Source: Naegleria gruberi
Lineage: Eukaryota
DNA length: 64,000 nt
Assembly (NCBI GenBank): GCA_000004985.1
Contig: GG738880.1
Reading direction: 5' to 3' (one strand)
Positions 43,774 through 64,000 of this stretch are shown here, piece after piece (within the stretch, counting starts at the first letter, position 1; each line of letters begins with the position of its first letter). The notes under the pieces were generated by a model, which was given only the letters and a program-made list of their open reading frames with translations, searched no databases and had not been told where the DNA came from. A program made the position numbers and the translations under genes.

Positions 43774-45640
43774 TTAATTTACAGTTTGATATAATGGTTC
43801 TGATTCCTTTGTCTCAGTAGTGGCAACACCTCTAATCAATCTGGATAATCTTGATCTGCTTACTGCCATCACGCAGAAGAGAGAACATGTTAATAACAAG
43901 ACACCCAAAAGAATTGCCAACAAGATCCAAAAGATTGTTGTCAAACTTCTTTGCTCATTGTAATTGTCCCTAATGCAAATATCAGCTTCATAATTCTTGC
44001 ATTCCCTGCACCAATTTACAGGAATGGCATCTCTTTCACAAATCGATTTAAAGCTAGTGAATGTGCAATTAAAGTCGGTGTCCTTTCCTGGTTGACATCC
44101 CTTTCCACCCAAAGATTTCAAAGTATATTCAGCGAATCTGTTATCACTATATCCTCTATTGTAAACAATCTTGATGTAAAAATCGTTAATGGTTGGTTTT
44201 TGTCCTTGGGGAACTGAATCACTTAGGTGCAATTCAACTAAAATTTGAGATCCATATGGAGGATTTTTTTGAAGCTCAACATAATCATCTGACAACTTTA
44301 AGGCAGCCATGAGTGAGAGAATACTCACATCGTGAGCACTGTAATGAATATACTTGTATGGTATTGTCTTACTGGCTCCCAGATCAGCTCCATAATTATT
44401 TGGTGGCTTTGGGGTTGATAATCCAGTCAATTTATCAATCATCTTGTTCATTTCGACAATCATGTTTTGAACAAGTGGTCCACCTCCAAGTTTACCTTGA
44501 ACTTTTCTATTGAATACCATAAATGTTGCGACGTCTCCCAATTCTTGGATCATATCCCAAATCTTGACAAGTTCTTGCAATTTCAATTGCTTGTGGGAGT
44601 ATTGAACATTTAAAAGATCATAGACCATATAAAAGTTGGCAAAATCAATAGTCTTCCAAGCAGGATACTTGAATCCAGCTTCACTCCTCAATGCTCTAAA
44701 GTATTCATCAGCAAATTTTCTATCGGAAAGTAATTTGTAGAAAGGAATTTGCTTTTGATTTTCATATGGACTGATGAATGAATTGATCATGTTCATAACA
44801 TGATTGCCTGATCCTTCCTTGAGACTATTATCAAACGGAATTTCAGTAACATTGGAAATGAAAGCCAAGGTTGGCTTGTACTTGTCAAGAATCTTGAAAA
44901 ATTCTGAACTTTGTTGATAATTTTCATTATTCAAATCAATAGTTGGACACTTTCCATAAGCACTCATCCAAATTTCATTGACATTTTCCTTAGTATTAAT
45001 TGGAATTGGTTGCATTTGATTTGGAAGAGCTCTCGCTTGTCCAGTAATTGAAATATCAGCAACTGGTCCATTTCCAGCAGGGAACATTGCTTGTGAAATA
45101 CTAAAAACTGAAAAGAGAGTTCTATCATAATCGGTAGCATAAAATCTAAAATCTCTTGGATTCCAATGAGCTGTCGTTTTCACATCACTATTTTCTGGAT
45201 AAATTAAATCGGCAATGACATTTGGATTTGGTGCTATTTTTCAATATCAATATGTAATGATAATTGATGATTAATAATAATCATGCAAACAAACCTCCAG
45301 TCTCATTAATAACTCTCGATAAATATCTTGCATTAAAATGTTGTCCAACAATATTACATTGTTGAAGACCCAATCCAGTGAGTTGTCCCTCACCAAATTC
45401 AATAGGACCCGATGCATCAAATCCTGCTGTATACGAATACTTGGCCAAATCTGTTTGCCAGTCCCACGGATCTGTCGGAACTTGATAAATAGTCACTGGA
45501 GATCGATCACAATGTCTCGACAAGACTTGTACCTGAACAATTTTACCCTCAGCGACCATCATCGTCATACTAAGGGTAGATGCCAGCAAGAGCAGCACAA
45601 TAAAGGAAAATAAATTTCCCCTCATTTTGAGTTGTTGCAT
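43774..45640 (-). CDS. Histidine acid phosphatase (lysosomal/prostatic acid phosphatase family) with a C-terminal TM anchor. Exons are 45285..45640 and 43774..45232.
   Basis: Exon 1 encodes a signal peptide and the RHGXRXP motif (VLSRHCDRSPV). It ends at a GTTTGT donor. A 52-nt intron (45233..45284) joins in frame to ORF 43774..45183 (...GAPNPNVIADLIYPENSDVKTTAHWNPRDF...), which carries the downstream HD motif (YSAHDVSILSLMAAL) and a C-terminal TM helix. Confidence 0.8.
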
Positions 45641-46194
45641 TTTTTCAAAAAGGTCTAATAGCTTACTCAATGAAATTATAGTACTACCTTAATAGTGGAA
45701 TTCAGTAAGGAACCAATTTAAGAACAGATTTGTTCTCAATTAATAATGATTCTATAAAATGAATTTATTCTTATGTTTAAGGAAATAAGGTCAATCGTTA
45801 GATTTTAGGTGAAAGAAATGAAATCTAAAGAAAAAACAAGATTTTTAAGGTTTTAAAATCATTGGAGAAAGATGTCTAGCCAGCAGGAATTTCCAGACTT
45901 CTTTTTCAAGGTAGTTCAACTCCAGCTATTTTGATATGAGCTGATGAAATATCTTCTATCTCAATTAATTTAACAGATATTGAAATAATAAATTGTGTAG
46001 AGAGAGAATATATCACTGGGAATCTATCTTCTTCTAAAGAATGTTTCTCATCCCTTATTCATTGAATATAATAGTAAAGTATCACAAATATTAAATGCAA
46101 AATGTCCAATTGTGAAAATTACAGGAAAAGATAATTCTCTGGTAGAGAATGGATGAATGACATGCTGTTCGTGATGTTTTAGTGAGAAGTCAAT

Positions 46195-47039
46195 ATCCAC
46201 ATCATGTGAAAAACAATAAAAACATGAAAATATAAGATATCCACGATTTTCACAAATTATGCTACAAGACTCGAAATTATACATTCAACAACATAATAAA
46301 CATTATGAATTGTTGTTTTATTGTTGTTTGATTTGTAATTGGGCTATGAATCAACTCTGTAGCATGAAATATCGGAACTTGGTAAATTGACAACATGATG
46401 AAAATCTGATAATAAATACCTCTCCTACCTACTATTGACCATTCCGAACAATAATACATTGACACTTTTCCAACTTGTCCAGTAGATCCAGCAGTGATGA
46501 TGAATTTAGTGAAAATTTTGACATTTCACCAAAATTACATTGCTAAAAATTAATTTCCACAAATACTATTATTATATTGATGGAAAACAATAATGATGAT
46601 GGTTGGTGAATGATCCGATGATGGAACACCAACTTGGGATTTTCCAGCATGAAAAATAAATTCCAATTTCATGATGATAATGAACCAATAAAAATTACTA
46701 TTATTATTACTATATAGATCATGTTGAGATGATGATGTGAAAGTTTGGTGGTTTCATGATGTAAAACCACTCCGAAAATCATGATGTCCTCCTTGAGTAG
46801 AAGAATGTTGAATATTTTTTTATGAAGTTTTTGTGAGAATGGCGTAGCAGTTGTATTATTGGTGAAGTTATGGTCTATGTCTTTCAAAATTAAGTCCATC
46901 ATGATGATAATCCACTAATAAAATTACTACTATTCAGATCATGTTGAGGGGTTCGATTTATCTCTTGTTTTACTGTAACAAGTATTGCGCCCAAAATTGT
47001 TAAGGTACTTCCCGTGTGCTAAACTCAAGCTCCAAAAAA
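46195..47039 (+). repeat. Copy A of a duplicated ~0.85-kb non-coding segment that lies upstream of the histidine-kinase 5' region.
   Basis: About 97-98% identical to 48291..49274 (copy B). Copy B carries an extra ~140 bp at about 48517..48656. Both copies run from CATCATGTGAAAA... to ...GATTATTTAGCGAGTAA. Confidence 0.85.
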
Positions 47040-48240
47040 ATGTTTGAAAATAAGCCACTAACAAACATGCAAGATATTAACTCTGGAAAAGATTATTTAG
47101 CGAGTAAAAGAAGGAAGGAATGATGTTATCGGAGAAGGAATTTATCAGTGATGATATTGAAATTAATGATAACACAAAAGCTACATCTTCAAAAACACTT
47201 TTCAATATTTCATCACCTTCGTTTAGGAAGAGATTGGAACTGGGAGAGGATGTGCCATTCTCCAATAATTTTAATAATAATGTAAATAATTCAAACAATA
47301 TTGAAAAACAACAAACGGAAACAAGTTCATCATCAACTACAACAACACCGAGACCATCATTCATCAAAGCACCTTCATTACCTTCATTATCTTTTCCTAT
47401 TAAGAAAAGTTCATCAGTTTCTGATGATGTTAAAGAGATTGAATCTAAATTGAATGCTAATTGCAAGAATGGTGTGGAAAGGGCAATGTTATACATGTTG
47501 GCAAACCGATTGAATGTCAAGTTGTTGATTGGAGTTCTATTTGTGTTATCTTTTTTAAATAGCCTTAAAACATTAAGTTTTAATCAGAATATTTTGAGTA
47601 TTGTCCTATTTCTTGTTCAATTATATACTAACTATCATAGGAAGAATATTGATATGGCCATGTCCTATGAGGAGACTTTTAAAAGATTGGATGGGCAGGA
47701 AATGCAGAGAATGGTTGTTTCCTTGGTTCTCTACACAACCAGAATACTATTCCTTCCCGAACATAACATGATGTTTATTCCAGTTCTTTTCCTTTGGTTT
47801 GCTGGAGCTAACAAGTTGTACATTTACTCAACTTTTCATGGGCTATTCCCAACATTTTACACAAGCTTTCTCTACATTATGTGTGCTTGCTACCATTCGT
47901 ACCATGAGTATATTTTGAATGGATACTCTGCTCGATTCATTGGAATCATTGAGCAATATACAGTTATGACTGGCTGTGTTTGGATGTTCTCCTATTATTT
48001 TATTAATGTGACTGGTTATTTGAAACACAAGGTAGATAAATTGCAAGACACTAGAAAAAGGTTGGAATCAGCATTAGACGCTCGTAGTCGTTTCATGGCC
48101 CATATTTCACACGAGTTTAGATGTCCAATAATGTCAAGTATAGGGTGCTTGGAGTTGTTAAAAGAAACTCCATTGAATGAAAAACAAAATGATTTGGTTG
48201 ACACAATTGTTTCTTCAAATAGTGTTCTTTTGCTTTGATG
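47040..48240 (+). CDS. Hybrid sensor histidine kinase, 5' part, copy 1, with a multi-TM sensor region and the HisKA H-box. It is truncated by the N-gap at 48241, and a 1-nt homopolymer frameshift near 47110 lies upstream of the ORF-track start 47120.
   Basis: H-box is SRFMAHISHEFRCPIMSSIGCLELLKETPLNEKQNDLVDTIV. Several hydrophobic helices lie upstream. Copy 2 (49275..) is in frame from MFENKPLTNMQD, whereas copy 1 has AGTAAAAGAAGG against AGTAAGAAGG in copy 2. Confidence 0.6.
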
Positions 48241-48290
48241 NNNNNNNNNNNNNNNNNNNNNNNNNNNNNNNNNNNNNNNNNNNNNNNNNN
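48241..48290. other. Assembly gap (50 N).
   Basis: A run of N. Flanking sequence shows the contig break falls inside the duplicated unit. Confidence 0.99.
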
Positions 48291-49274
48291 CATCATGTGA
48301 AAACAATAAAAACATGAAAATATAAGATATCCACGATTTTCACAAATTTTGTTACAAGACTCGAAATTATACATTCAACAACATAATAAACATTATGAAT
48401 TGTTGTTTTATTGTTGTTTGATTTGTAATTGGGCTATGAATCAACTCTGGTAGCATCAAATATCGGAACTTGGTAAATTGACAACATGATGAAAATCTGA
48501 TAATAAATATGATGTTTATTATCTATTTAAATAGTAGTACTAAAAGACATGATTCAAGTTGGTGAAGTACATGTTGAGTTATGGTCCATGTACTTTTTAA
48601 AAATTCACATGTACCTATCCCTATCATAACTTGACCAAAATTGATAAGAGAAAGTTCTCCTACCTACTATTGACCATTCCGAACAATAATACATTGACAC
48701 TTTTCCAACTTGTCCAGTAGATCCAGCAGTGATGATGAATTTAGTGAAAATTTTGACATTTCACCAAAATTACATTGCTAAAAATTAATTTCCACAAATA
48801 CTATTATTATATTGATGGAAAACAATAATGATGATGGTTGGTGAATGATCCGATGATGGAACACCAACTTGGGATTTTCCAGCATGAAAAATAAATTCCA
48901 ATTTCATGATGATAATGAACCAATAAAAATTACTATTATTATTACTATATAGATCATGTTGAGATGATGATGTGAAAGTTTGGTGGTTTCATGATGTAAA
49001 ACCACTCCGAAAATCATGATGTCCTCCTTGAGTAGAAGAATGTTGAATATTTTTTTATGAAGTTTTTGTGAGAATGGCGTAGCAGTTGTATTATTGGTGA
49101 AGTTATGGTCTATGTCTTTCAAAATTAAGTCCATCATGATGATAATCCACTAATAAAATTACTACTATTCAGATCATGTTGAGGGGTTCGATTTATCTCT
49201 TGTTTTACTGTAACAAGTATTGCGCCCAAAATTGTTAAGGTACTTCCCGTGTGCTAAACTCAAGCTCCAAAAAA
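48291..49274 (+). repeat. Copy B of the duplicated upstream non-coding segment, with a ~140-bp insertion relative to copy A.
   Basis: It aligns with 46195..47039. The extra block is at about 48517..48656. Confidence 0.85.
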
Positions 49275-49734
49275 ATGTTTGAAAATAAGCCACTAACAAA
49301 CATGCAAGATATTAACTCTGGAAAAGATTATTTAGCGAGTAAGAAGGAAGGAATGATGTTATCGGAGAAGGAATTTATCAGTGATGATATTGAAATTAAT
49401 GATAACACAAAAGCTACTTCTTCAAAAACACTTTTCAATATTTCATCACCTTCGTTTAGGAAGAGATTGGAACTGGGAGAGGATGTACATGTGCCATTCT
49501 CCAATAATTTTAATAATAATGTAAATAATTCAAACAATATTGAAAAACAACAAACGGAAACAAGTTCATCATCAACTACAACAACACCGAGACCATCATT
49601 CATCAAAGCACCATCATTACCTTCATTATCTTTTCCTATTAAGAAAAGTTCATCAGTTTCTGATGATGTTAAAGAGATTGAATCCAAATTGAATGCTAAT
49701 TGCAAGAATGGTGTGGAAAGGGCAATGTTATACA
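49275..49734 (+). CDS. Hybrid sensor histidine kinase, 5' part, copy 2, truncated by the N-gap at 49735.
   Basis: About 98% identical to 47040..47500. It has an in-frame ATG at 49275 and a 6-nt indel relative to copy 1 (GEDVHVPF against GEDVPF). The ORF-track ORF 49251..50996 spans the gap artificially. Confidence 0.6.
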
Positions 49735-50119
49735 NNNNNNNNNNNNNNNNNNNNNNNNNNNNNNNNNNNNNNNNNNNNNNNNNNNNNNNNNNNNNNNNNN
49801 NNNNNNNNNNNNNNNNNNNNNNNNNNNNNNNNNNNNNNNNNNNNNNNNNNNNNNNNNNNNNNNNNNNNNNNNNNNNNNNNNNNNNNNNNNNNNNNNNNNN
49901 NNNNNNNNNNNNNNNNNNNNNNNNNNNNNNNNNNNNNNNNNNNNNNNNNNNNNNNNNNNNNNNNNNNNNNNNNNNNNNNNNNNNNNNNNNNNNNNNNNNN
50001 NNNNNNNNNNNNNNNNNNNNNNNNNNNNNNNNNNNNNNNNNNNNNNNNNNNNNNNNNNNNNNNNNNNNNNNNNNNNNNNNNNNNNNNNNNNNNNNNNNNN
50101 NNNNNNNNNNNNNNNNNNN
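49735..50119. other. Assembly gap (385 N).
   Basis: A run of N. Confidence 0.99.
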
Positions 50120-50156
50120 ATGGCAAGTGTCAAGACCTGTCACATTGATGAAAAAA

Positions 50157-51187
50157 ATGAATAGAGAAGATGTTCTTCTAATGTTGCATGATAAACCGAA
50201 TGAAAATGCAAATAGCTTGTTTGAACTATTGAAAATTAGAATGATGACAAGCAAAACCTCTAAAATTTCAAATCAATTTACAAAAGCAATTCGTATTGAT
50301 AATTGTAAACATGTGGAAACGCTTGGAACGCCAAATAAGTATGGAAAGCCTGCACGAGGACTCAACAACAAATTCTTCTTCAATATTCCGATGGATATTA
50401 CTATTTCATACAGGCACGAAACAATTTATGTTTGCGACTACAAAAATTACAAAATTCAAACATTTGATTTGGCTACCAAACAATTTATCACTTCAATTTC
50501 GACAATTCCGACGTGCTTTATCTACATTCAAGTGGACGATCAATTTGATCAATTATTTGGATTAGGATTTGATCGTTCCTTATATGTGGGAAAATTTGAG
50601 AAACCAAGTAAGGGAAGAGGTGGATTAAGTTTTGCAAGTTTGGAACGATTGAAAATGTCAGTAATGGAAGAATGTGGTCAATTTTCAAAGATTTGTTTGG
50701 ATAGAGAAATGGGGAGATTATACTTTATGGAAAATTCAAGGCAATTCAGAATTGGAGTATTGAGAACGATGGATTTGAGTATTGTAAATTTGATGCAAGT
50801 TGATTTTGATGAACAAGATCCAAGTGATGGGGACAAAATATTGTATTTGGATGGAAGAGGCAATTTATGTATTCTTTCGTTCCCTCTTGTTAAAAGCATT
50901 CCCTTGTCAATTGTGAATTCAAGGAAACAAGCTCACTTTGGCCAATTTGAAACATTATTGAGTTTACAGAAAAGATTTCCAATGTGTTCAAGATAGTAAC
51001 TGAGAAATCATCTGGGAATATATTAATTTCTATACCAATTCCTTTAACATCAACTCCTATTACCATTCAAAAAGGTCATCATCAAACATGGATCTTTCAT
51101 TCTGCTTCTGGAATGGAAATTAATGAAATTGAAGGTGAATTATTAATTGTAGAAAAGAAATCCTTCACTATTAAAATATTCAAATAA
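50157..51187 (+). pseudogene. NHL-repeat (beta-propeller) protein gene, copy 1. It carries a 1-nt frameshift near 50958 relative to copy 2, which is either pseudogenisation or a homopolymer error.
   Basis: NHL-like blades are IYVCDYKNYKIQTFDLATKQFITSI, GRLYFMENSRQFRIGVL and GELLIVEKKSFTIKIF. Copy 1 reads CATTATTGAGTTT where copy 2 reads CATTATTTGAGTTT. The reading frame continues in ORF 50984..51187. Confidence 0.5.
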
Positions 51188-51188
51188 T

Positions 51189-53752
51189 TTACATGTAATC
51201 TACAACAGTTGTATGAGGTGGATAAACTTCCTGAACTTGATTGTTGACAGTTGAATAATATTGCTTGAACAATTCAAATCTGGTGTTCTTTCCAGAAGAT
51301 TCCAATATGTGAGCAAAATACCCAATGCTCTTAATCAATTTTCTGGCAGGATACGATTTGATGTATTCATCATTTTGAACAACAGCTGTCAAATTAGCTT
51401 CATAATCTCTGAGCATGTTAATAATTTCATCATTATTCAACCCTTCAAAGTTCTTGTCATAGAAGAAATATTTTCCAAACTCTGAGAATTTCTGATTTGC
51501 CTTTTGCTGTTCCAACTCGTACATCCATTCTTGAAATTTTGTTACAATTTTTGTAAACCTTTCAACTTACCATCACCTTCAATAGTATTTTCCTTTTCAA
51601 CTTCATAAACAACCGAAACTTTTCCTTCTTGTGAATTTTCAACAACTTCCATCAACTTGTCAACTGGTCTGGATACAAACTTTTTCAGAGTTGACTCATC
51701 CATTGTTCCCTCATCAGCCAACACATCACATCTCAAGTCGTCTGCCAAAAAAGCAAGTTTTTCAGCATTGATAGGAACTGAACCAACAACAGAAAATGTT
51801 CTAAATGAACTAGTTCCCAAATTTCCTGCATAGCACTTTCCACTACTGACTCCAATGGCACATCTGATATGGGTTTTCGATGTTTCATTGATTGTTACTA
51901 ATAATTTTCTCAATTTCAAAGCAGCTTCCAAAGCCAAAACATTTGACGATTTTCGACCATTTCCTTCCACAGACGAAACATAAATCTGATAATCATCCAC
52001 AGTAATAACTTGAAAATCACCTTGTATAGATTTAGAAACAGCACTCAACCCAGAAACAATCTTTGAAAATATGTGTCCAATATCAGCAACATTCAAATCT
52101 GTTGAAAAATCAATTAATTTGATTCTTACAACTGCTCCTTGTTTACAATTCAGACCAATTTTGAAAAGAGAATTTCCCACTTCTTGAACTTTGGATGCCA
52201 TTGAGGAAGTTCTTGAACTATTGTTACTAAAATGACGACTTCCATGAGATTCCAAATCTATTGAGGCAGCATCACTATTCGAAACTGGGTGATTCTTATG
52301 TTTCTTTGATTTGGTGTTGGCTTGGGATTCATCTGTTTTTTTGGTATTTTCTTCTTTCATATTTCTCAATTGTAAAAATACACTTTCTGGAATAAATGTC
52401 TTAATTTCGTTTAACCATACTGTCATTTCATATAAATAAAGGTAAATCAAATCGACTTCTTTAAACTTGCTTGCAGTAATATTCACCTGATCTAGTTCCA
52501 TAGTTTTGATTTTCATAAATTCTCTTTCTAAAATTGTAAATGGATTTGTGACAATGTGTCCAATAGTGATAGACATGATTACACCAACAATGATAATCAA
52601 AATGGTAATACCAACAGATACTCCAGTTGTAATATTTGTTACCATTTCAACTTCTTGCTTATCAACCACAATGAAAACATTCCATTCCAAGTTGACCAAT
52701 GTGAAATTTGACTTTACAATGAAAAAACCATCAAAGTCAATAAAAATTGGTGTGTTAGTCCACCCCTTATAATTCTGATAAACCCTGTTCAATAAACTTC
52801 CAGAACCCTTATCAATCAAGTCAAATAACGAAACTCTAGAACTTCCATCCAAAGCAGTAGTATTGATATTTCCACCAATGACAAGATTATTGGTTTCTGC
52901 CACAATCACATAACCACTAGTGAGTACTTGTACTGTTTTCAAAAAGCTTTCAATAATTCTCAATGAAATATTCGTTTTTGTAATGCCAACTACCTTTTTA
53001 ATTCCATTGCTATAATAGGTAGGATCATATAATTTGGCACAATAGTAAGTTGTATAACTTGGATTGCCAGGAATTGCATAAGGAATGCCGAATACACCAT
53101 CTAATCCCAAAGAGGAATAAAAACCAAAAGTAGTTTTCCAATAACTTTGAGCATTCACTTCATAATTAGGAGATGCCTTGACCAGTGACTTGGCAGTTGT
53201 GTTAGGAGTTGAAGTATCCAATGAAATTGCATATAACATAAATTCAGTCGTTGGTGTATGATACCAAACAACAATTTCATTGGGTGGAGCTCCGTAAACA
53301 TTGACACTGTCAAGACTGTCATTAAAAAATAAACCAATTCCGTATGGCTTGAAAGTGTTGTAATATTTGTAAAGATAGGCAAGCGATGGTTGACGAGGAA
53401 CAAGTCCTAAATTGTAATCCTCAGCCATTGACTCAGTTGCTGAAATATAAGGTTTCAGTTGACCGTTCATATAGTTCAGTACTGAACCACTGATGGTATG
53501 CATCAATTGAGTTGATAAGGAACTCAGGGCTTCTCGAGATCCTATGAAAGAAGATAACCAAATTAAAATTGAACAGCAAACTAATAGAGAAGTGATTAGA
53601 ATAATGATAAATGTTCTAACCGAAATGATTCCACCACATGTTGTTGGTTTGATTGGAGCTATTTTGGTTTTCTCCTCGGTTTCGTCTTCGTTGAGGAGAG
53701 GATTTTGTTCTTTGAGACTGTCTAGGGATGCTGTGAATGGTTGTATTTTCAT
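51189..53752 (-). CDS. Membrane sensor with a class-III nucleotidyl-cyclase homology domain (ACG-like), paralog 2. Exons are 51580..53752 and 51189..51538.
   Basis: TM1 is IIILITSLLVCCSILIWLSSFIG. An extracytoplasmic domain follows, then TM2 (VSVGITILIIIVGVIMSITIG). The cyclase-like blocks are VVRIKLIDFSTDL, QVITVDDYQIYVS and IRCAIGVSSGKCYAGNLGTSSFRTFSVVGSVPINAEKLA. A GTAAGT donor at 51579 and a TTTCAAG acceptor at 51539 give a 41-nt intron. It joins in frame to ORF 51189..51524, whose start (EWMYELEQQ) matches the EWLYELDNL tail block of paralog 1. Confidence 0.6.
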
Positions 53753-55002
53753 GATTAGTTTTGAATAGTTTTTTTAAAAATTTGAAATCATTTGAAAGGT
53801 AGTTTGATTCAATCTCGTTTGAAAATTTAGAAATCTCACCACATATGCGTTTATGGTGGAGATAACAACAATTACCTGTTTGAATATTTCCTTAACTTCT
53901 CCATTCTATTCACAACCCATCATATACTGTTAACTTTAAACGAAAATTTACAGCGCTCATTTAGAATGATTCAACTCTGTTCCCATCACTTGATGTTAAA
54001 CAACCAAATGTTTTTTCTACTTTGAAAGAGAATCTTCCTTAAAATTCGATAGGTGACAGAAATAAAAGGGTGTAGGTGTAAAAACGTCTCTTGTATCAAT
54101 AACGACCTGAGAGAACAATAGGTGACAGAAAAGAAAAAGATGTTGTTGCATTTCAGCTATCTCCCTTGATTTTTTTTGCTATAGTAAATTCGTTTATTTA
54201 AACATAGTTGTTTGGTAAATTACTTAGTGAAGATTCATATCATTGATTATATTTCTTATCGTCTATTAATGATGTAAATATGATGTTTTCATTTCTTATA
54301 TCTGTGGTCAGGTTCTCGGCGCATTTTTGTGATGCTTCCAAAAAACATGGAATGCTCCCAAAGCTGATTTACCTGTAGGGGTAATTGGATGCGCCAATAA
54401 CACCGATTTATTACTTAAGCAAATTCACTCAACTTCAACAAAGCGTATCTCAATAACAACACTGGATGTTAGAGAAACATACCGTATGGTCATTATTAAT
54501 TATGTTAACAATCATAATATCAAGTTTGTTACAGATTTGGCTCTTTACTTATCGAGAAAAGTGATTTCAAAATTTTCATATGTGGTAGTAAGACGAGCAT
54601 GTTTTCTTGGTTAATACAAATAACTGATATTCAATAAAACAGAATCTTGTAGAAAACATCAATTAGAACAAGAATAATAAATAATATTTTTATTTCACTA
54701 AGTATTAAATTTAATATTTCCTTTTTTGTAAGGAGCATTGCAAAAATACGGGAAAAACATTTCCACAGATATTGATAGATATTTAAAGGTTAAGGATAAC
54801 GGTCAAATTGAGTTGAATGGAAGTGAATATTGAGATATGTATACTACTGTTGAAGAAGTATCACCTTCACTATAATTACTGACATGAGTATAACAATTGA
54901 ACATATGATTCCTGTATCAATAATTCATTATTCAATGATTTTGATATGATGGGGTTGGATTAGATATCCACTTTTGGGTTTGGATCCCATGTCAACCCCT
55001 AT

Positions 55003-59675: not shown

Positions 59676-60605
59676 ATAAAATGAGCGAGTTGGAGCATAA
59701 TCTTTGATTTTATGTCAAAGGTCTATAGTAAAATGATAGAGTTGACAACTCAATATCTACTGAACCAAAATTAATGAAATTGATATTATATGCTAATTAG
59801 AGTGTCTACATATCATGGTATTAATTTCAGTGAAAATGGAGTTGTTTCTATATCTTTCAGATTTCCAGCCATTCTCTTGAAATATCACCATGTACTATCT
59901 ACTGAATGCATTTGTTGAAATGAAATTATATAATTTGATGAAATTACACTTTATTTGAGATGTAGAACACGATATTATCATTTATTTTGAGATTGGTAAC
60001 TTTTCCTATAGTGTCATCCTTAATTGTCTTAATTGACTAAAAAAGGTCAAGGAGATATTTCAAAATATAAAATAAATTATATTTTCGAGATGTACTATTG
60101 ATTTCCAATCGATTGATATGTATTTTGTTGATTGACGAAGTGGTTCTCTATTTGAAGATTTCCTCCTTGATCTTTAAAGACAACCTTGAAATTTCACCCT
60201 TTACCTTACTGAAAGATAGAATATTCTCCAAAATGTCTGAAAATTGAACCATATACATTATTTGAGATGTTGAACATGGTGGTAAAGTTGCATAGAGTGG
60301 TCATTTTCCAGATTTTCATCCATGTCCACAGTTGACTAATTGGTATGATAGAGTTGAAATCATGAACATGAAAGTGAAAATAAACTTGATTTTCTATCTC
60401 TACTCGTAGAGTGAAGCATTTTCATGTATATATTGTTGGTTGAAGTGATGTATTTGATAGAGTTAGTGTGACTTGTCTTTCCTTAAAGTCAACCATAAAA
60501 TATCAACATTTACCTTCCCATTATACCATTTCTGATTATTAAGACATGAAATTGAATTCTATATCATTATATATCATGTACATCATTTTGGTAAAGTTTT
60601 AATAG

Positions 60606-60906
60606 GTGGTTTGGGTTTGGGTTTGGGTTTGGGTTTGGGTTTGGGTTTGGGTTTGGGTTTGGGTTTGGGTTTGGGTTTGGGTTTGGGTTTGGGTTTGGGT
60701 TTGGGTTTGGGTTTGGGTTTGGGTTTGGGTTTGGGTTTGGGTTTGGGTTTGGGTTTGGGTTTGGGTTTGGGTTTGGGTTTGGGTTTGGGTTTGGGTTTGG
60801 GTTTGGGTTTGGGTTTGGGTTTGGGTTGGGTTTGGGTTTGGGTTTGGGTTTGGGTTTGGGTTTGGGTTTGGGTTTGGGTTTGGGTTTGGGTTTGGGTTTG
60901 GGTTAA
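60606..60906 (+). repeat. (GGGTTT)n hexanucleotide array of about 50 units with one GGGTT variant. Telomere-like, G-rich strand on the plus strand, and it ends in a gap.
   Basis: Perfect 6-bp periodicity with a single 5-mer variant near 60826. The three 'ORFs' over it (GLGL, WVWV, PKPK/TQTQ) are artefacts of the open frames of a hexamer repeat. Confidence 0.9.
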
Positions 60907-60956: not shown

Positions 60957-61995
60957 AAGGATGAGGATCCAAATGTAACAACCTTTAATTTGTTCGAATC
61001 GTTGAAGGCCATGACGAACATTATTTCAGGTTACGCTTCCACATTTAAGGTAAATTTGAAATTGGAAATTGATTCCAAGATTAAGGACATGTTCGTTCAC
61101 TCAAATTCTTCCAAACTCCACCAAATATTATTAAATTTATTGACAAACGCTGTAAAGGCTTCAAAGCAAGGTGATTCTGTATGGTTAAAAAGTAGACTAT
61201 TGGAAGATTATGGAGATTCTGTAACTGTCAGATTTATTTGTGAAGATACTGGATGCGGAATTCCACAAAATTTGATTTCTTCTATTTTTGAACCATTCGT
61301 GCAATTACAAAACAGCTCACAATCCAAAGTGCCAAGTTCTGGACTCGGACTCACTACTGTTTCACATCTAATCAAATCGATGGATGGTCAAATTAGCGTT
61401 CTCTCTCAAGTCGGAAAAGGAAGTATTTTCACAGTTGATTTGCCATTCAAATTAAAACCAAGCAAGTTCCAAGAAAATAGTGATCGTAATGGTAATCCAG
61501 AAGATAGGCGATCAAAACTTCACCTTAGCGTTCATAAGAGCTATTTAACAATGATGACAGACTTGGAAAAGAATGAAAAAGAAAAGGAGAAAAAGTCAAA
61601 GTTTAATTCTAAAATATTGATTGCAGAAGATAATCCTATTAACAGAAAAGTTATTGTCAAGATGATAAATAGTTTAGGGCACGAAACAGATTATGTTTGT
61701 GATGGAAAGGAACTGGTTGAGAACTTTAATCCAAAAACTCACAAGGTTGTAATTACAGATATGGTATGTTGAAAAATCAATATTTAATGTATGCTCATCT
61801 AATTAGAATATGCCAAATATGAATGGATTGGAAGCTACTAAGGTTCTAAGAGAAAAATATGGAGATTCATTCAAGATTTATTTATTAACAGGTAATGTGA
61901 CAGTCTCTTTGACAGATGTTGATGATATGGGTTTATTGGATGGCATTCTAACAAAGCCCTGTTCTAAACAAGAGCTTGAGAAATGTATTACGTAA
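60957..61995 (+). CDS. Hybrid sensor histidine kinase, 3' part (HATPase_c catalytic domain plus receiver domain). The 5' end is lost in the gap. Exons are 60957..61763 and 61807..61995.
   Basis: N-box is LLNLLTNAVKAS, G1 is EDTGCGIP, G2 is SGLGLT. The receiver opens with KILIAEDNPINRKVIVKMINSLGHETDYVCDGKELVENF...VVITDM. A 43-nt GTATGT..AATTAG intron leads in frame to NMPNMNGLEATKVLREK...IYLLTGN...ILTKP, giving the D-x2-MP receiver signature. A TAA stop is at 61993. Confidence 0.8.
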
Positions 61996-62040
61996 AGTGA
62001 ATTTGGCAAGTGTCAAGACCTGTCAAATTGATGAAAAAAA

Positions 62041-62932
62041 ATGAATAGAGAAGATGTTCTTCTAATGTTGCATGATAAACCGAATGAAAATGCAAATAGC
62101 TTGTTTGAACTATTGAAAATTAGAATGATGACAAGCAAAACCTCTAAAATTTCAAATCAATTTACAAAAGTAATTCGTATTGATAATTGTAAACATGTGG
62201 AAACGCTTGGAACGCCAAATAAATATGGAAAGCCTGCACGAGGACTCAACAACAAATTCTTCTTCAATATTCCGATGGATATTACTATTTCATACAGGCA
62301 CGAAACAATTTATGTTTGCGACTACAAAAATTACAAAATTCAAACATTTGATTTGGCTACCAAACAATTTATCACTTCAATTTCGACAATTCCGACGTGC
62401 TTTATCTACATTCAAGTGGATGATCAATTTGATCAATTATTTGGATTAGGATTTGATCGTTCCTTATATGTGGGAAAATTTGAGAAACCAAGTAAGGGAA
62501 GAGGTGGATTAAGTTTTGCAAGTTTGGAAAGTATAATCTTCCCATTTCTCTATCCATACAAATCTTTGAAAATTGACCACATTCTTCCATTAGTGACATT
62601 TTCAATCGTTTATGGAAAATTCAAGGCAATTCAGAATTGGAGTATTGAGAACGATGGATTTGAATATTGTAAATTTGATGCAAGTTGATTTTGATGAACA
62701 AGATCCAAGTGATGGGGACAAAGTATTGTATTTGGATGGAAGAGGCAATTTATGTATTCTTTCATTCCCTCTTGTTAAAAGTATACCCTTGTCAATTGTG
62801 AATTCAAGGAAACAAGCTCACTTTGGCCAATTTGAAACATTATTTGAGTTTACAGAAAAGATTTCAAATGTGTTCAAGATAGCAACTGAGCAATCGTCTG
62901 GGAATATATTAATTTCCATACCAATTCCTTTG
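62041..62932 (+). pseudogene. NHL-repeat protein gene, copy 2, lying directly downstream of the HK 3' end. It is disrupted by an ~81-bp internal inversion (62530..62610) and truncated by the gap at 62933.
   Basis: About 97% identical to 50157..51050. The segment 62530..62610 is the reverse complement of copy 1 at about 50648..50728. The correct peptide KMSLMEECGQFSKICMDREMGRLYF is encoded on the minus strand (ORF 62402..62605). The forward frame is broken into ORFs 62041..62688 and 62612..62989. Confidence 0.5.
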
Positions 62933-62982: not shown

Positions 62983-63679
62983 TTATTGAAATACCATGAT
63001 TAACTGATCCATTATAACACATTATAATTGAAAGATTTTAAAATTAATATGATTTGACAATCTTGACATTTATAATTCCCATGATTACACTCCTGACATG
63101 TTGAATGATTTCAAATTGTCATGAAACTGATACAGTAGTGTTTATTCACCTTCACTAAGGTCCTATATCAGTTTCATGATGATCTGTATAGTGGATGTGA
63201 TTGTCACATCCCTATAGGTGTCAAGTAGATCAGCCATGTAGCATGTATGATATGGATGAATGTCAAAATGATATTAATGTATTTCATTATCATGTATAGA
63301 TGTATTGGAAGTGAATTGAAGTGGTATAGATTTCTATCTTCAATGTTAGTATAGGTGAGTTGACAAGTTGAATATTAAATATCCTGATATGATACCTAAG
63401 TATTTGAAATTGATATATATTGTTATTAACATGATTTGCAAGGTGATATATTGATATGAAATGATTTTGAAATGTTTTCATTGATATTCTAATTGTCTAA
63501 TCTATTATATGAAATTAACTTATATAAGTCATTATAATGATGTAATATTATGTTATAATATGATTATATATTCAATTTGGAGTATATTGATATATAATAT
63601 ATTGATTTATAATGAGTATTTATTGAGATAATCAATTAAGATGAATAAAAGTCAAAATGTTGGGTCTGACCTTAGTCGT

Positions 63680-64000
63680 GGGTTTGGGTTTGGGTTTGGG
63701 TTTGGGTTTGGGTTTGGGTTTGGGTTTGGGTTTGGGTTTGGGTTGGGTTGGGTTGGGTTTGGGTTTGGGTTTGGGTTTGGGTTTGGGTTTGGGTTTGGGT
63801 TTGGGTTTGGGTTTGGGTTTGGGTTTGGGTTTGGGTTTGGGTTTGGGTTTGGGTTTGGGTTTGGGTTTGGGTTTGGGTTTGGGTTTGGGTTTGGGTTTGG
63901 GTTTGGGTTTGGGTTTGGGTTTGGGTTTGGGTTTGGGTTTGGGTTTGGGTTTGGGTTTGGGTTTGGGTTTGGGTTTGGGTTTGGGTTTGGGTTTGGGTTT
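63680..64000 (+). repeat. (GGGTTT)n array with three GGGTT variants, running to the window end. Candidate terminal telomeric repeat with the G-strand oriented 5'->3' toward the end.
   Basis: More than 50 perfect hexamer units. It is preceded by a ~700-bp AT-rich ORF-free spacer (62983..63679). It has the same orientation as the array at 60606. Confidence 0.85.

What the first reader, a model, noticed from the sequence alone, without database searches (positions are those of the whole stretch)
46040..51200. Tandem segmental duplication of the histidine-kinase 5' region with contig breaks inside the repeat
A unit of about 2.2 kb is present twice in tandem, at 46195..48240 and 48291..49734. It comprises 0.85 kb of upstream non-coding DNA, then the HK N-terminus, multi-TM sensor and H-box. 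The copies are about 98% identical and differ by a 140-bp indel, a 6-nt codon indel (HV) and a 1-nt frameshift near 47110. Each copy is cut off by an N-gap exactly where the kinase would continue. The only HATPase/receiver half sits 11 kb away at 60957. The NHL gene that follows the HK stop at 61995 reappears straight after the second gap at 50157. So the true locus is probably HK then NHL, duplicated at least once, and the assembly has collapsed and fragmented it.
Basis: seen in the sequence. Interest (0 to 1): 0.5.

Follow-up and report, generated by a model that had tools for sequence, protein, structure and literature searches.

The report
Assembly redundancy at a Naegleria chromosome end
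The apparent tandem duplication of a sensor-kinase gene is most likely two slightly different versions of one chromosome-end locus in the heterozygous Naegleria gruberi draft genome that the assembler laid out one after the other, so it is an ordinary assembly artefact rather than a new genetic feature.

Summary
The window is Naegleria gruberi NEG-M, from a gapped Sanger draft scaffold. The repeat is real as text. Contig B (48291-49734) is entirely a ~98-99% copy of 46200-47495. The left end of contig C (50121-51045) matches the right end of contig E (62004-62931) at ~98%, apart from an 83-bp inverted segment. But every repeat boundary is a contig edge next to an N-gap, so no duplication junction is ever seen. 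The two halves of the hybrid histidine kinase sit 12.7 kb apart in the scaffold. Paralogues show they fit together with only about 18 codons missing. Joined, they give intact HisKA, HATPase_c and receiver domains. Between the halves lies a (GGGTTT)n telomere array (60608-60904). Its orientation caps the DNA to its left. A second array (63679-64000) ends the window. The simplest reading is two paths: A-E-F-telomere and B-C-D-telomere. The second path is nested in the ~54-bp A|E gap between default 50-N spacers. These are probably the two homologues of a heterozygous diploid. A real duplication, subtelomeric or tandem, is not excluded without read depth or long reads. Interest is low. Two public gene models (EFC42336, EFC42337) are artefacts of this layout.

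The parts
46200..47495 (+). Copy 1 of the repeated segment, inside contig A: about 840 bp of upstream non-coding DNA plus the first ~150 codons of the HK
   Evidence: Self-BLAST; global alignment
48291..49734 (+). Copy 2, which is the whole of contig B. It is bounded by N-gaps on both sides. It carries a 144-bp extra segment at 48511-48654 and a 6-nt (HV) insertion, and it lacks the AA at A 47106-47107
   Evidence: All 3 coding substitutions against copy 1 are synonymous (read from the positions and the sequence)
47120..48240 (+). HK 5' half: low-complexity N-terminus, about 6 hydrophobic helices, and HisKA up to profile position 48/66. It is cut by the contig end. Public model EFC42336
   Evidence: Pfam HisKA 40.9 bits; exact match to EFC42336.1; hydrophobic segments by inspection
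60957..61997 (+). HK 3' half on contig E: linker, HATPase_c and receiver domain, with a 43-nt GT..AG intron at 61766-61808 and stop TAA at 61995-61997. It continues contig A after about 18 missing codons
   Evidence: Joined protein: HisKA 40 bits, HATPase_c 84 bits, Response_reg 67 bits, all above the cut-offs
50121..51186 (+). NHL-like gene, version on contig C. The ORF runs from 50157 and has a 1-nt deletion near 50957 that shifts the frame. With that repaired it gives 343 aa ending at 51186
62004..62931 (+). NHL-like gene, version on contig E. It is ~98% identical to C except for an 83-bp inverted segment (62528-62610) plus 1 nt, which breaks the ORF. It is cut by the contig end
50644..50726 (.). 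The segment that is inverted between the two NHL-like versions. In C this orientation keeps the ORF open
   Evidence: BLAST minus-strand hit at 96%; 3 mismatches in 83
60608..60904 (+). (GGGTTT)n array, about 50 units, at the right end of contig D. The G-rich strand runs 5'->3' rightwards, so it caps the DNA to its left (C-D), not contig E
   Evidence: TRF; pattern scan with 0 expected by chance; TTTGGG is the published candidate N. gruberi telomere repeat (PMC3622300)
63679..64000 (+). Second (GGGTTT)n array, at least 54 units, in the same orientation. It runs to the last base of the window and is probably the scaffold end
59676..60607 (.). Non-coding telomere-adjacent DNA of contig D, with a degenerate ~309-bp direct repeat
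   Evidence: 59876-60289 vs 60185-60610, 61% identity, E=1e-18
62983..63678 (.). Non-coding telomere-adjacent DNA of contig F. It shares only 61-69% patches with D and is not found in C

Best explanation
There is one hybrid histidine-kinase gene followed by one NHL-like gene per chromosome copy, a few kb from a chromosome end of Naegleria gruberi. The sequenced strain carries two ~98-99% identical versions of this end, most likely its two homologues. They differ by structural variants: a 144-bp indel upstream of the HK, an 83-bp inversion in the NHL-like gene, and different distal sequence. Reads that cross these variants could not be merged, so they formed separate small contigs (B, and the right part of E against the left part of C). 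The near-identical kinase body was collapsed into one copy. The scaffolder then wrote the alternatives in series. Path 1 is A -> (about 54 bp missing) -> E -> F -> telomere. Path 2 is B -> C -> D -> telomere, nested in the A|E gap between default 50-N spacers. The 'tandem duplication' is therefore a layout artefact.

Shown: the identities, the coincidence of contig edges with repeat ends, the fit of the two kinase halves, and the telomere arrays with their orientation.

Inferred: that the two versions are alleles, that 50 N is a floor or default gap value, and that the window end is the scaffold end.
For: (1) The organism is N. gruberi NEG-M, on a 416,450-bp scaffold (exact protein matches). 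It is reported as a heterozygous diploid (PMC9928731 citing Fritz-Laylin 2010).
(2) All repeat ends are contig ends. B is wholly contained in A. The C/E match runs from the first base of C to the last base of E. No junction is visible.
(3) Each split-off contig end lies within about a Sanger read length of a structural variant. B extends 220 bp left and 1080 bp right of the 144-bp indel. C starts 524 bp left of the inversion and E ends 322 bp right of it.
(4) In an alignment with paralogues, the A end and the E start are separated by exactly 18 columns (LIEDILQIVKIEHESKGA). The joined protein has HisKA, HATPase_c and Response_reg above the Pfam cut-offs. Yet the scaffold puts the halves 12.7 kb apart.
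(5) A telomere array that caps the left-hand DNA lies between the halves, and a second array ends the window.
(6) The two joins this model calls artificial (A|B and D|E) are both exactly 50 N, as is E|F, while the other gaps are sized at 385 and 4673.
(7) Divergence is alike in both pairs: 0.7% for A/B and ~2% for C/E outside the inversion. It is mostly synonymous, about 11 synonymous to 5 non-synonymous changes. This fits alleles or very recent copies under constraint.
Against: - The B->C gap is sized at 385 bp, whereas a full second kinase body needs about 1.85 kb.
- The telomere-adjacent sequences D and F are not allelic-looking, with only 61-69% patches. Homologues would therefore have to differ structurally at the tip, or F is mis-joined through the shared telomere repeat.
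- Each NHL-like version carries its own lesion: a frameshift in C and an inversion in E. That is slightly odd for two functional alleles.
- Real tandem and near-identical HK paralogues exist in a long-read N. fowleri assembly, so true duplication is biologically plausible in this family.
- No read depth, trace data or independent assembly could be consulted.
Confidence: 0.6

Rival explanations
1. Real duplication between two different chromosome ends (subtelomeric paralogy). The HK/NHL-like cassette exists on two non-homologous chromosome ends. Contigs B-C-D belong to another chromosome and were pulled into this scaffold through the collapsed near-identical kinase body and the shared telomere repeat.
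For: There are two telomere arrays with dissimilar adjacent sequence. The two paths diverge completely beyond the NHL-like gene. The HK family is multi-copy in N. gruberi, with paralogues P0017 and P0018 on other scaffolds, and it duplicates locally in N. fowleri.
Against: B ends only 220 bp left of the indel and shows no divergent left flank. It was scaffolded here rather than with another chromosome. The 98-99% identity with mostly synonymous change is equally expected of alleles. Known N. gruberi paralogues of this HK are only ~60% identical.
Confidence: 0.2
2. True tandem duplication on one chromosome: [upstream-HK-NHL-like] x2. The real order would be A-E-(junction)-B-(second HK body)-C-D-telomere. 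The second kinase body would be collapsed onto the first.
For: Two versions of both the 5' flank and the 3' neighbour exist in one scaffold. Tandem HK genes are real in N. fowleri contig VFQX01000051.
Against: No junction sequence is present. The scaffold's own spacing contradicts this order: A|B is 50 N where at least 2 kb (contig E) would be needed, B|C is 385 where 1.85 kb is needed, and E is placed beyond a telomere array. A second telomere contig (F) is left unexplained.
Confidence: 0.12
3. Copy 2 is a real, internally deleted partial duplicate. The 385-bp gap estimate is right, so B (upstream plus the first ~150 HK codons) is joined almost directly to the NHL-like gene of C. That would be a dead HK remnant beside a full gene.
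For: 385 is the only non-default gap estimate bearing on this. It is about 1.46 kb too short for a full kinase body.
Against: Gap estimates from a few mate pairs in a collapsed region are unreliable. The three coding substitutions in B are all synonymous and its 6-nt indel is in frame, which is not what a dead remnant predicts. The model still needs a second chromosome end.
Confidence: 0.05

Closest known systems
Uncollapsed haplotype contigs ('haplotigs' or bubbles) serialised within scaffolds of heterozygous diploid draft assemblies
   Same: The copies are short, ~98-99% identical and bounded by N-gaps. They are fully contained in, or overlap, a neighbouring contig. Each is centred on an indel or inversion that prevents merging. 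The intervening identical sequence is collapsed. The organism is reported to be heterozygous.
   Different: Here the two paths also end in different telomere-adjacent sequences, so the alternative copies may differ structurally at the chromosome tip. Half-depth coverage, the usual proof, could not be checked.
Subtelomeric segmental duplication of gene families, as in yeast, Plasmodium and trypanosome chromosome ends (from general knowledge)
   Same: A member of a multi-copy sensor gene family lies within about 2-13 kb of telomere repeats. Two near-identical versions each lead to a telomere array.
   Different: No second unique chromosome-internal flank is seen. The identity is far higher than between known N. 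gruberi paralogues of this HK (about 60%).
Naegleria multi-TM hybrid histidine kinases (the 24 HKs of N. gruberi, Kabbara et al. 2018, PMC6324907; N. fowleri FDP41_006311 and FDP41_006325)
   Same: The reconstructed protein has an N-terminal multi-helix membrane region with no known sensor domain, then HisKA, HATPase_c and a C-terminal receiver. It is 54-62% identical to N. gruberi paralogues and 26-36% identical to the N. fowleri proteins.
   Different: In the public assembly the gene is split over two contigs and annotated only as a truncated 'predicted protein' (EFC42336) plus a chimera (EFC42337). Whether it is among the 24 counted HKs could not be checked, because no supplement is held.

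Membership tests
Real tandem segmental duplication | A head-to-tail junction (end of unit joined to start of unit) present in contiguous sequence | tested here: not met
   Every repeat end coincides with a contig end next to an N-gap. No novel adjacency is seen.
Real tandem segmental duplication | The whole unit is present twice | tested here: not met
   Only 46200-47495 and 50121-51045 have second copies. The kinase body (47496-48240, 60957-62003) occurs once.
Real tandem segmental duplication | Twofold read depth, or long reads that carry both copies | not testable with these tools
   No reads or alternative N. gruberi assembly were accessible. Exact-protein look-ups of this scaffold returned nothing.
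Haplotype (allelic) assembly redundancy | The redundant contig is wholly contained in or overlaps a neighbour at high identity and is bounded by gaps | tested here: met
   B lies within A at ~99% plus indels. The E right end matches the C left end at ~98% plus an inversion.
Haplotype (allelic) assembly redundancy | A structural difference that explains why the copies were not merged | tested here: met
   A 144-bp indel in the B/A pair and an 83-bp inversion in the C/E pair. Contig ends lie within about 0.2-1.1 kb of them.
Haplotype (allelic) assembly redundancy | The sequenced organism is heterozygous and non-haploid | tested here: met
   Literature only: N. gruberi heterozygosity and diploidy, as cited in PMC9928731.
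Haplotype (allelic) assembly redundancy | Half depth on each alternative and 1:1 allele ratio | not testable with these tools
   No read data.
Hybrid histidine kinase (HisKA + HATPase_c + receiver) | All three Pfam domains above the gathering score, with an H-box His and a receiver Asp | tested here: met
   Joined A+E protein: HisKA 40.0 bits (cut-off 26.9), HATPase_c 84.2 (26.4), Response_reg 67.3 (30.2). HISHEFRCP and VVITDM motifs are present in the sequence. HisKA positions 49-66 fall in the gap.
NHL-repeat beta-propeller protein | Pfam NHL (PF01436) above the gathering score, in several repeats | tested here: not met
   One stretch only, 14.5 bits against a cut-off of 20. The weak PDB match to NHLRC2 (E=1e-5) has no stretch that passes on its own. 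It is NHL-like at best.
Telomere of N. gruberi | A long tandem array of the species' telomere unit, G-rich strand 5'->3' towards a sequence end | tested here: met
   (GGGTTT) x ~50 at the end of contig D and x >=54 at the window end. TTTGGG was reported as the candidate N. gruberi repeat (PMC3622300). That the window end is the scaffold end is an inference.

The most novel reading that the evidence does not exclude
The two versions are both real and represent structurally different chromosome tips, either homologues or paralogous subtelomeres. In one, the chromosome runs on for about 10 kb past the NHL-like gene, through a small gene and a cyclase-like gene, to its telomere. In the other, the NHL-like gene is disrupted by an 83-bp inversion, loses its 3' end and is followed within about 1 kb by a different subtelomeric sequence and a telomere. 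That would be a terminal rearrangement or break-and-heal event next to a sensor histidine kinase, and it would show that Naegleria HK genes diversify in plastic subtelomeres.
Probability: 0.3. Interest if true: 0.3.

Novelty: not a real feature. Interest (0 to 1): 0.12.

Why it matters
The main value is curation.
- The N. gruberi reference carries one intact-looking hybrid histidine kinase, about 740 aa. It is currently annotated only as a truncated protein (EFC42336) and a chimeric HK-N-terminus/NHL-like fusion (EFC42337).
- Gene-family counts may be off by one. Any inference of a 'tandem HK duplication' or of an internal telomere array from this scaffold would be wrong.
- The locus also marks a chromosome end with the TTTGGG repeat. 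That is useful for anchoring newer long-read assemblies.
- If the two paths prove to be structurally different tips, it would be a modest example of subtelomeric plasticity in a heterolobosean.

Tried and rejected
- Exact-protein look-ups to fetch this scaffold or independent assemblies failed. The 736-aa ORF, P0023, the E ORF and P0016 were not on record.
- A metagenome scan for close relatives of the kinase found only distant (<=36%) bacterial-type HKs.
- A homologue search with the HK 3' half found no hit of 90% identity or more, so no transcript or model bridges the A|E gap.
- Caveat on that search: the first search failed to list EFC42336 although it is identical to part of the query, and one search also failed to list P0017. 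Absence from these lists is weak evidence. I withdrew my earlier inference that the 5' half was unannotated.
- The Fritz-Laylin 2010 genome paper and the 2011 review are not held, so the genome-wide heterozygosity level could not be quoted.
- The supplement of the HK survey is not held.
- I looked for a mobile-element signature in the 144-bp indel. There are no convincing terminal repeats and no other copies in the window.
- I looked for inverted repeats flanking the 83-bp inversion. There is only 2-3 nt of microhomology.
- There are no tRNAs in the window.
- I considered an interstitial telomere array physically joined to the HK 3' half. I rejected it because the array's orientation caps the left-hand DNA, and because the kinase half matches the A end.
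Full report
**Source and layout.** Five ORFs of the window are identical to Naegleria gruberi NEG-M proteins (EFC42414, EFC42415, EFC42419, EFC42334, EFC42335) that lie on one 416,450-bp scaffold. The window is therefore part of the JGI Sanger draft of a eukaryote. It is about 34% G+C, gene-dense, and has short GT..AG introns. Five N-runs divide the last 18 kb into six contigs:

| Contig | Coordinates |
|---|---|
| A | 1-48240 |
| B | 48291-49734 |
| C | 50120-55002 |
| D | 59676-60906 |
| E | 60957-62932 |
| F | 62983-64000 |

Three of the five gaps are exactly 50 N. The other two are 385 and 4673. This suggests that 50 is a default or floor value (inference).

**Is the repeat there?** Yes. 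Self-BLAST and a global alignment show that the whole of contig B repeats A 46200-47495. The differences are:
- 8-9 substitutions;
- two 1-nt indels;
- a 144-bp segment present only in B (48511-48654);
- a 6-nt in-frame indel (HV);
- a 2-nt (AA) indel at A 47106-47107.

The three substitutions in the coding part are all synonymous. However, copy 1 is duplicated only up to 47495. The membrane sensor and H-box (47496-48240) occur once, so a 2.2-kb unit is not observed.

The second repeat pair is C 50121-51045 against E 62004-62931. BLAST reports 93% identity, but the alignment shows ~98% everywhere except one block. That block, C 50644-50726, is the reverse complement of E 62528-62610 with 3 mismatches. 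It is an 83-bp inversion. In C the ORF reads through this block. In E the inversion, plus one extra base, breaks the ORF. C in turn lacks one T near 50957, which shifts its frame. With that repaired, the ORF gives 343 aa ending at 51186. Coding changes between the two versions are about 8 synonymous to 5 non-synonymous.

**What the genes are.**
- The A ORF (47120-48238) has a low-complexity N-terminus, about six hydrophobic helices, and HisKA positions 1-48 of 66. It stops only because the contig ends.
- Contig E starts about 50 residues before a complete HATPase_c domain. It continues into a receiver domain interrupted by a 43-nt intron (61766-61808) and stops at 61995-61997.
- Aligned with N. 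gruberi paralogues (EFC36593, EFC39424), an environmental relative and two N. fowleri proteins, the A fragment ends and the E fragment begins exactly 18 columns apart. Those columns read LIEDILQIVKIEHESKGA in the paralogues.
- The joined protein scores above the Pfam cut-offs for HisKA, HATPase_c and Response_reg.

So A and E are the two halves of one hybrid histidine kinase with about 54 bp unsequenced between them, although the scaffold separates them by 12.7 kb.

The downstream gene is only NHL-like. One stretch scores 14.5 bits against the Pfam NHL cut-off of 20, and there is a weak match to NHLRC2 structures.

**The overlooked feature: telomeres.**
- Contig D ends in about 50 units of GGGTTT (60608-60904).
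- Contig F ends, at the last base of the window, in at least 54 units (63679-64000).
- TTTGGG is the candidate telomere repeat reported for N. gruberi (PMC3622300).
- In both arrays the G-rich strand runs 5'->3' to the right. That is the orientation of a right-hand chromosome end.

The D array therefore caps C-D. It cannot be a cap for contig E, which follows it. An array at exactly the window's end implies that the window is the end of the scaffold (inference). The unique DNA next to the two arrays is different, with only 61-69% patches in common. D contains a degenerate ~309-bp direct repeat.

**Interpretation.** No duplication junction is visible anywhere, because each repeat runs to a contig edge. 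The contig edges lie within a Sanger read length of the two structural differences. B reaches 220 bp left and 1080 bp right of the 144-bp indel. C begins 524 bp left of the inversion, and E ends 322 bp right of it. This is the pattern of assembly 'bubbles': reads that cross a structural difference cannot be merged, while reads elsewhere, at 1-2% divergence, are collapsed.

The contig graph is most simply read as two paths.
- Path 1: A -> ~54 bp -> E -> F -> telomere.
- Path 2: B -> (kinase body, collapsed onto A and E) -> C -> D -> telomere.

The scaffold order A|B-C-D|E-F is then path 2 nested in the small A|E gap. Both artificial joins are 50-N spacers.

N. gruberi is described as a heterozygous diploid (PMC9928731). 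I therefore consider the two paths most likely to be the two homologues (confidence about 0.6).

**What argues against this reading.**
- The B|C gap estimate of 385 bp is about 1.46 kb too short for a second kinase body.
- D and F are not allelic-looking.
- Each NHL-like version has its own lesion.
- Real local duplication occurs in this family. In the long-read N. fowleri contig VFQX01000051, two HK genes lie in tandem (69% nucleotide identity), and a third lies 25 kb away, inverted, sharing a 96%-identical 845-bp core.

The rivals are a cassette duplicated between two different chromosome ends (0.2), a true tandem duplication on one chromosome (0.12), and an internally deleted partial copy (0.05). 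The tandem model fits worst. It needs contig E (about 2 kb) in a gap written as 50 N, it needs 1.85 kb in a gap sized at 385, and it leaves the second telomere contig unexplained.

**Annotation consequences.**
- EFC42336 is exactly the truncated A ORF.
- EFC42337 (P0023) is a chimera. It fuses the first ~148 residues of the B copy, across the 385-N gap, to the frameshifted NHL-like ORF of C.
- No model or transcript-derived protein covering the 3' half was found. The word-based search is demonstrably incomplete, however, since it missed EFC42336.

**Comparison and novelty.** The kinase is an ordinary member of the Naegleria multi-TM hybrid HK group described by Kabbara et al. (PMC6324907). The telomere motif is already published. 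The 'tandem duplication' is best filed as assembly redundancy in a heterozygous draft, so it is not a real feature.

The most novel reading still open (probability about 0.3) is that the two paths are truly different chromosome tips, one rearranged just beyond the kinase. That would be a modest case of subtelomeric plasticity. Read depth, or the existing nanopore assembly (PMC12695648), would settle it.

Noticed in passing
window 60608-60904 and 63679-64000: Two long (GGGTTT)n arrays lie in the same orientation. One is at an internal contig end and one is at the window end. They match the candidate N. gruberi telomere repeat TTTGGG (PMC3622300). Variant GGGTT units sit at different positions in the two arrays (about 60822 versus about 63740-63755), so they are distinct arrays.
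   Followed up: yes
window 50644-50726 vs 62528-62610: There is an 83-bp inversion (3 mismatches) between the two versions of the NHL-like gene, with only 2-3 nt of microhomology at the ends. It destroys the ORF in the contig E version. It is either a real small inversion polymorphism or a cloning artefact.
   Followed up: partly
window 47120-48238 and 49266-50996: Public gene models here are artefacts of the layout. EFC42336 is a kinase truncated at a contig end. EFC42337 fuses the HK N-terminus of contig B to the NHL-like ORF of contig C across a 385-N gap.
   Followed up: yes
window 59876-60610: There is a degenerate direct repeat of about 309 bp (59876-60289 vs 60185-60610, 61% identity) just inside the telomere array of contig D. 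It is weakly similar to contig F (61-69% patches) and may be a subtelomeric repeat family.
   Followed up: partly
L001 10001-15100 and L002 10001-12152 (N. fowleri VFQX01000051.1, about 499.7-527.3 kb): Two hybrid HK genes of the same family lie in tandem. A third lies 25 kb away on the opposite strand and shares a 96%-identical 845-bp kinase core with the first. This suggests recent duplication or gene conversion in a long-read assembly.
   Followed up: partly
window 51542-53752 (-) and 51189-51524 (-): A 736-aa membrane protein has only a sub-threshold adenylate/guanylate cyclase match (18.6 bits against a cut-off of 21.9). Beside it is a 111-aa ORF. These are the last genes before the D telomere on the B-C-D path. 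Neither exact ORF is in the protein collection, so the public models probably differ.
   Followed up: no
window 61766-61808: A 43-nt GT..AG intron splits the receiver domain just after the phospho-acceptor Asp (VVITDM | NMPNMNG). Removing it raises the Response_reg score from 25 to 67 bits.
   Followed up: yes
window 43774-45670 (-): A histidine acid phosphatase (His_Phos_2) gene is split over two ORFs (43774-45183 and 45281-45670), probably by an intron. It has a C-terminal TM segment and is the last gene before the repeated region.
   Followed up: no
window 48225-48240: Contig A ends '...cttttgctttgatg', which gives a stop codon in frame. Paralogues read LLLLIED here, so the last few bases look like low-quality read end with missing T's rather than a real stop.
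   Followed up: partly
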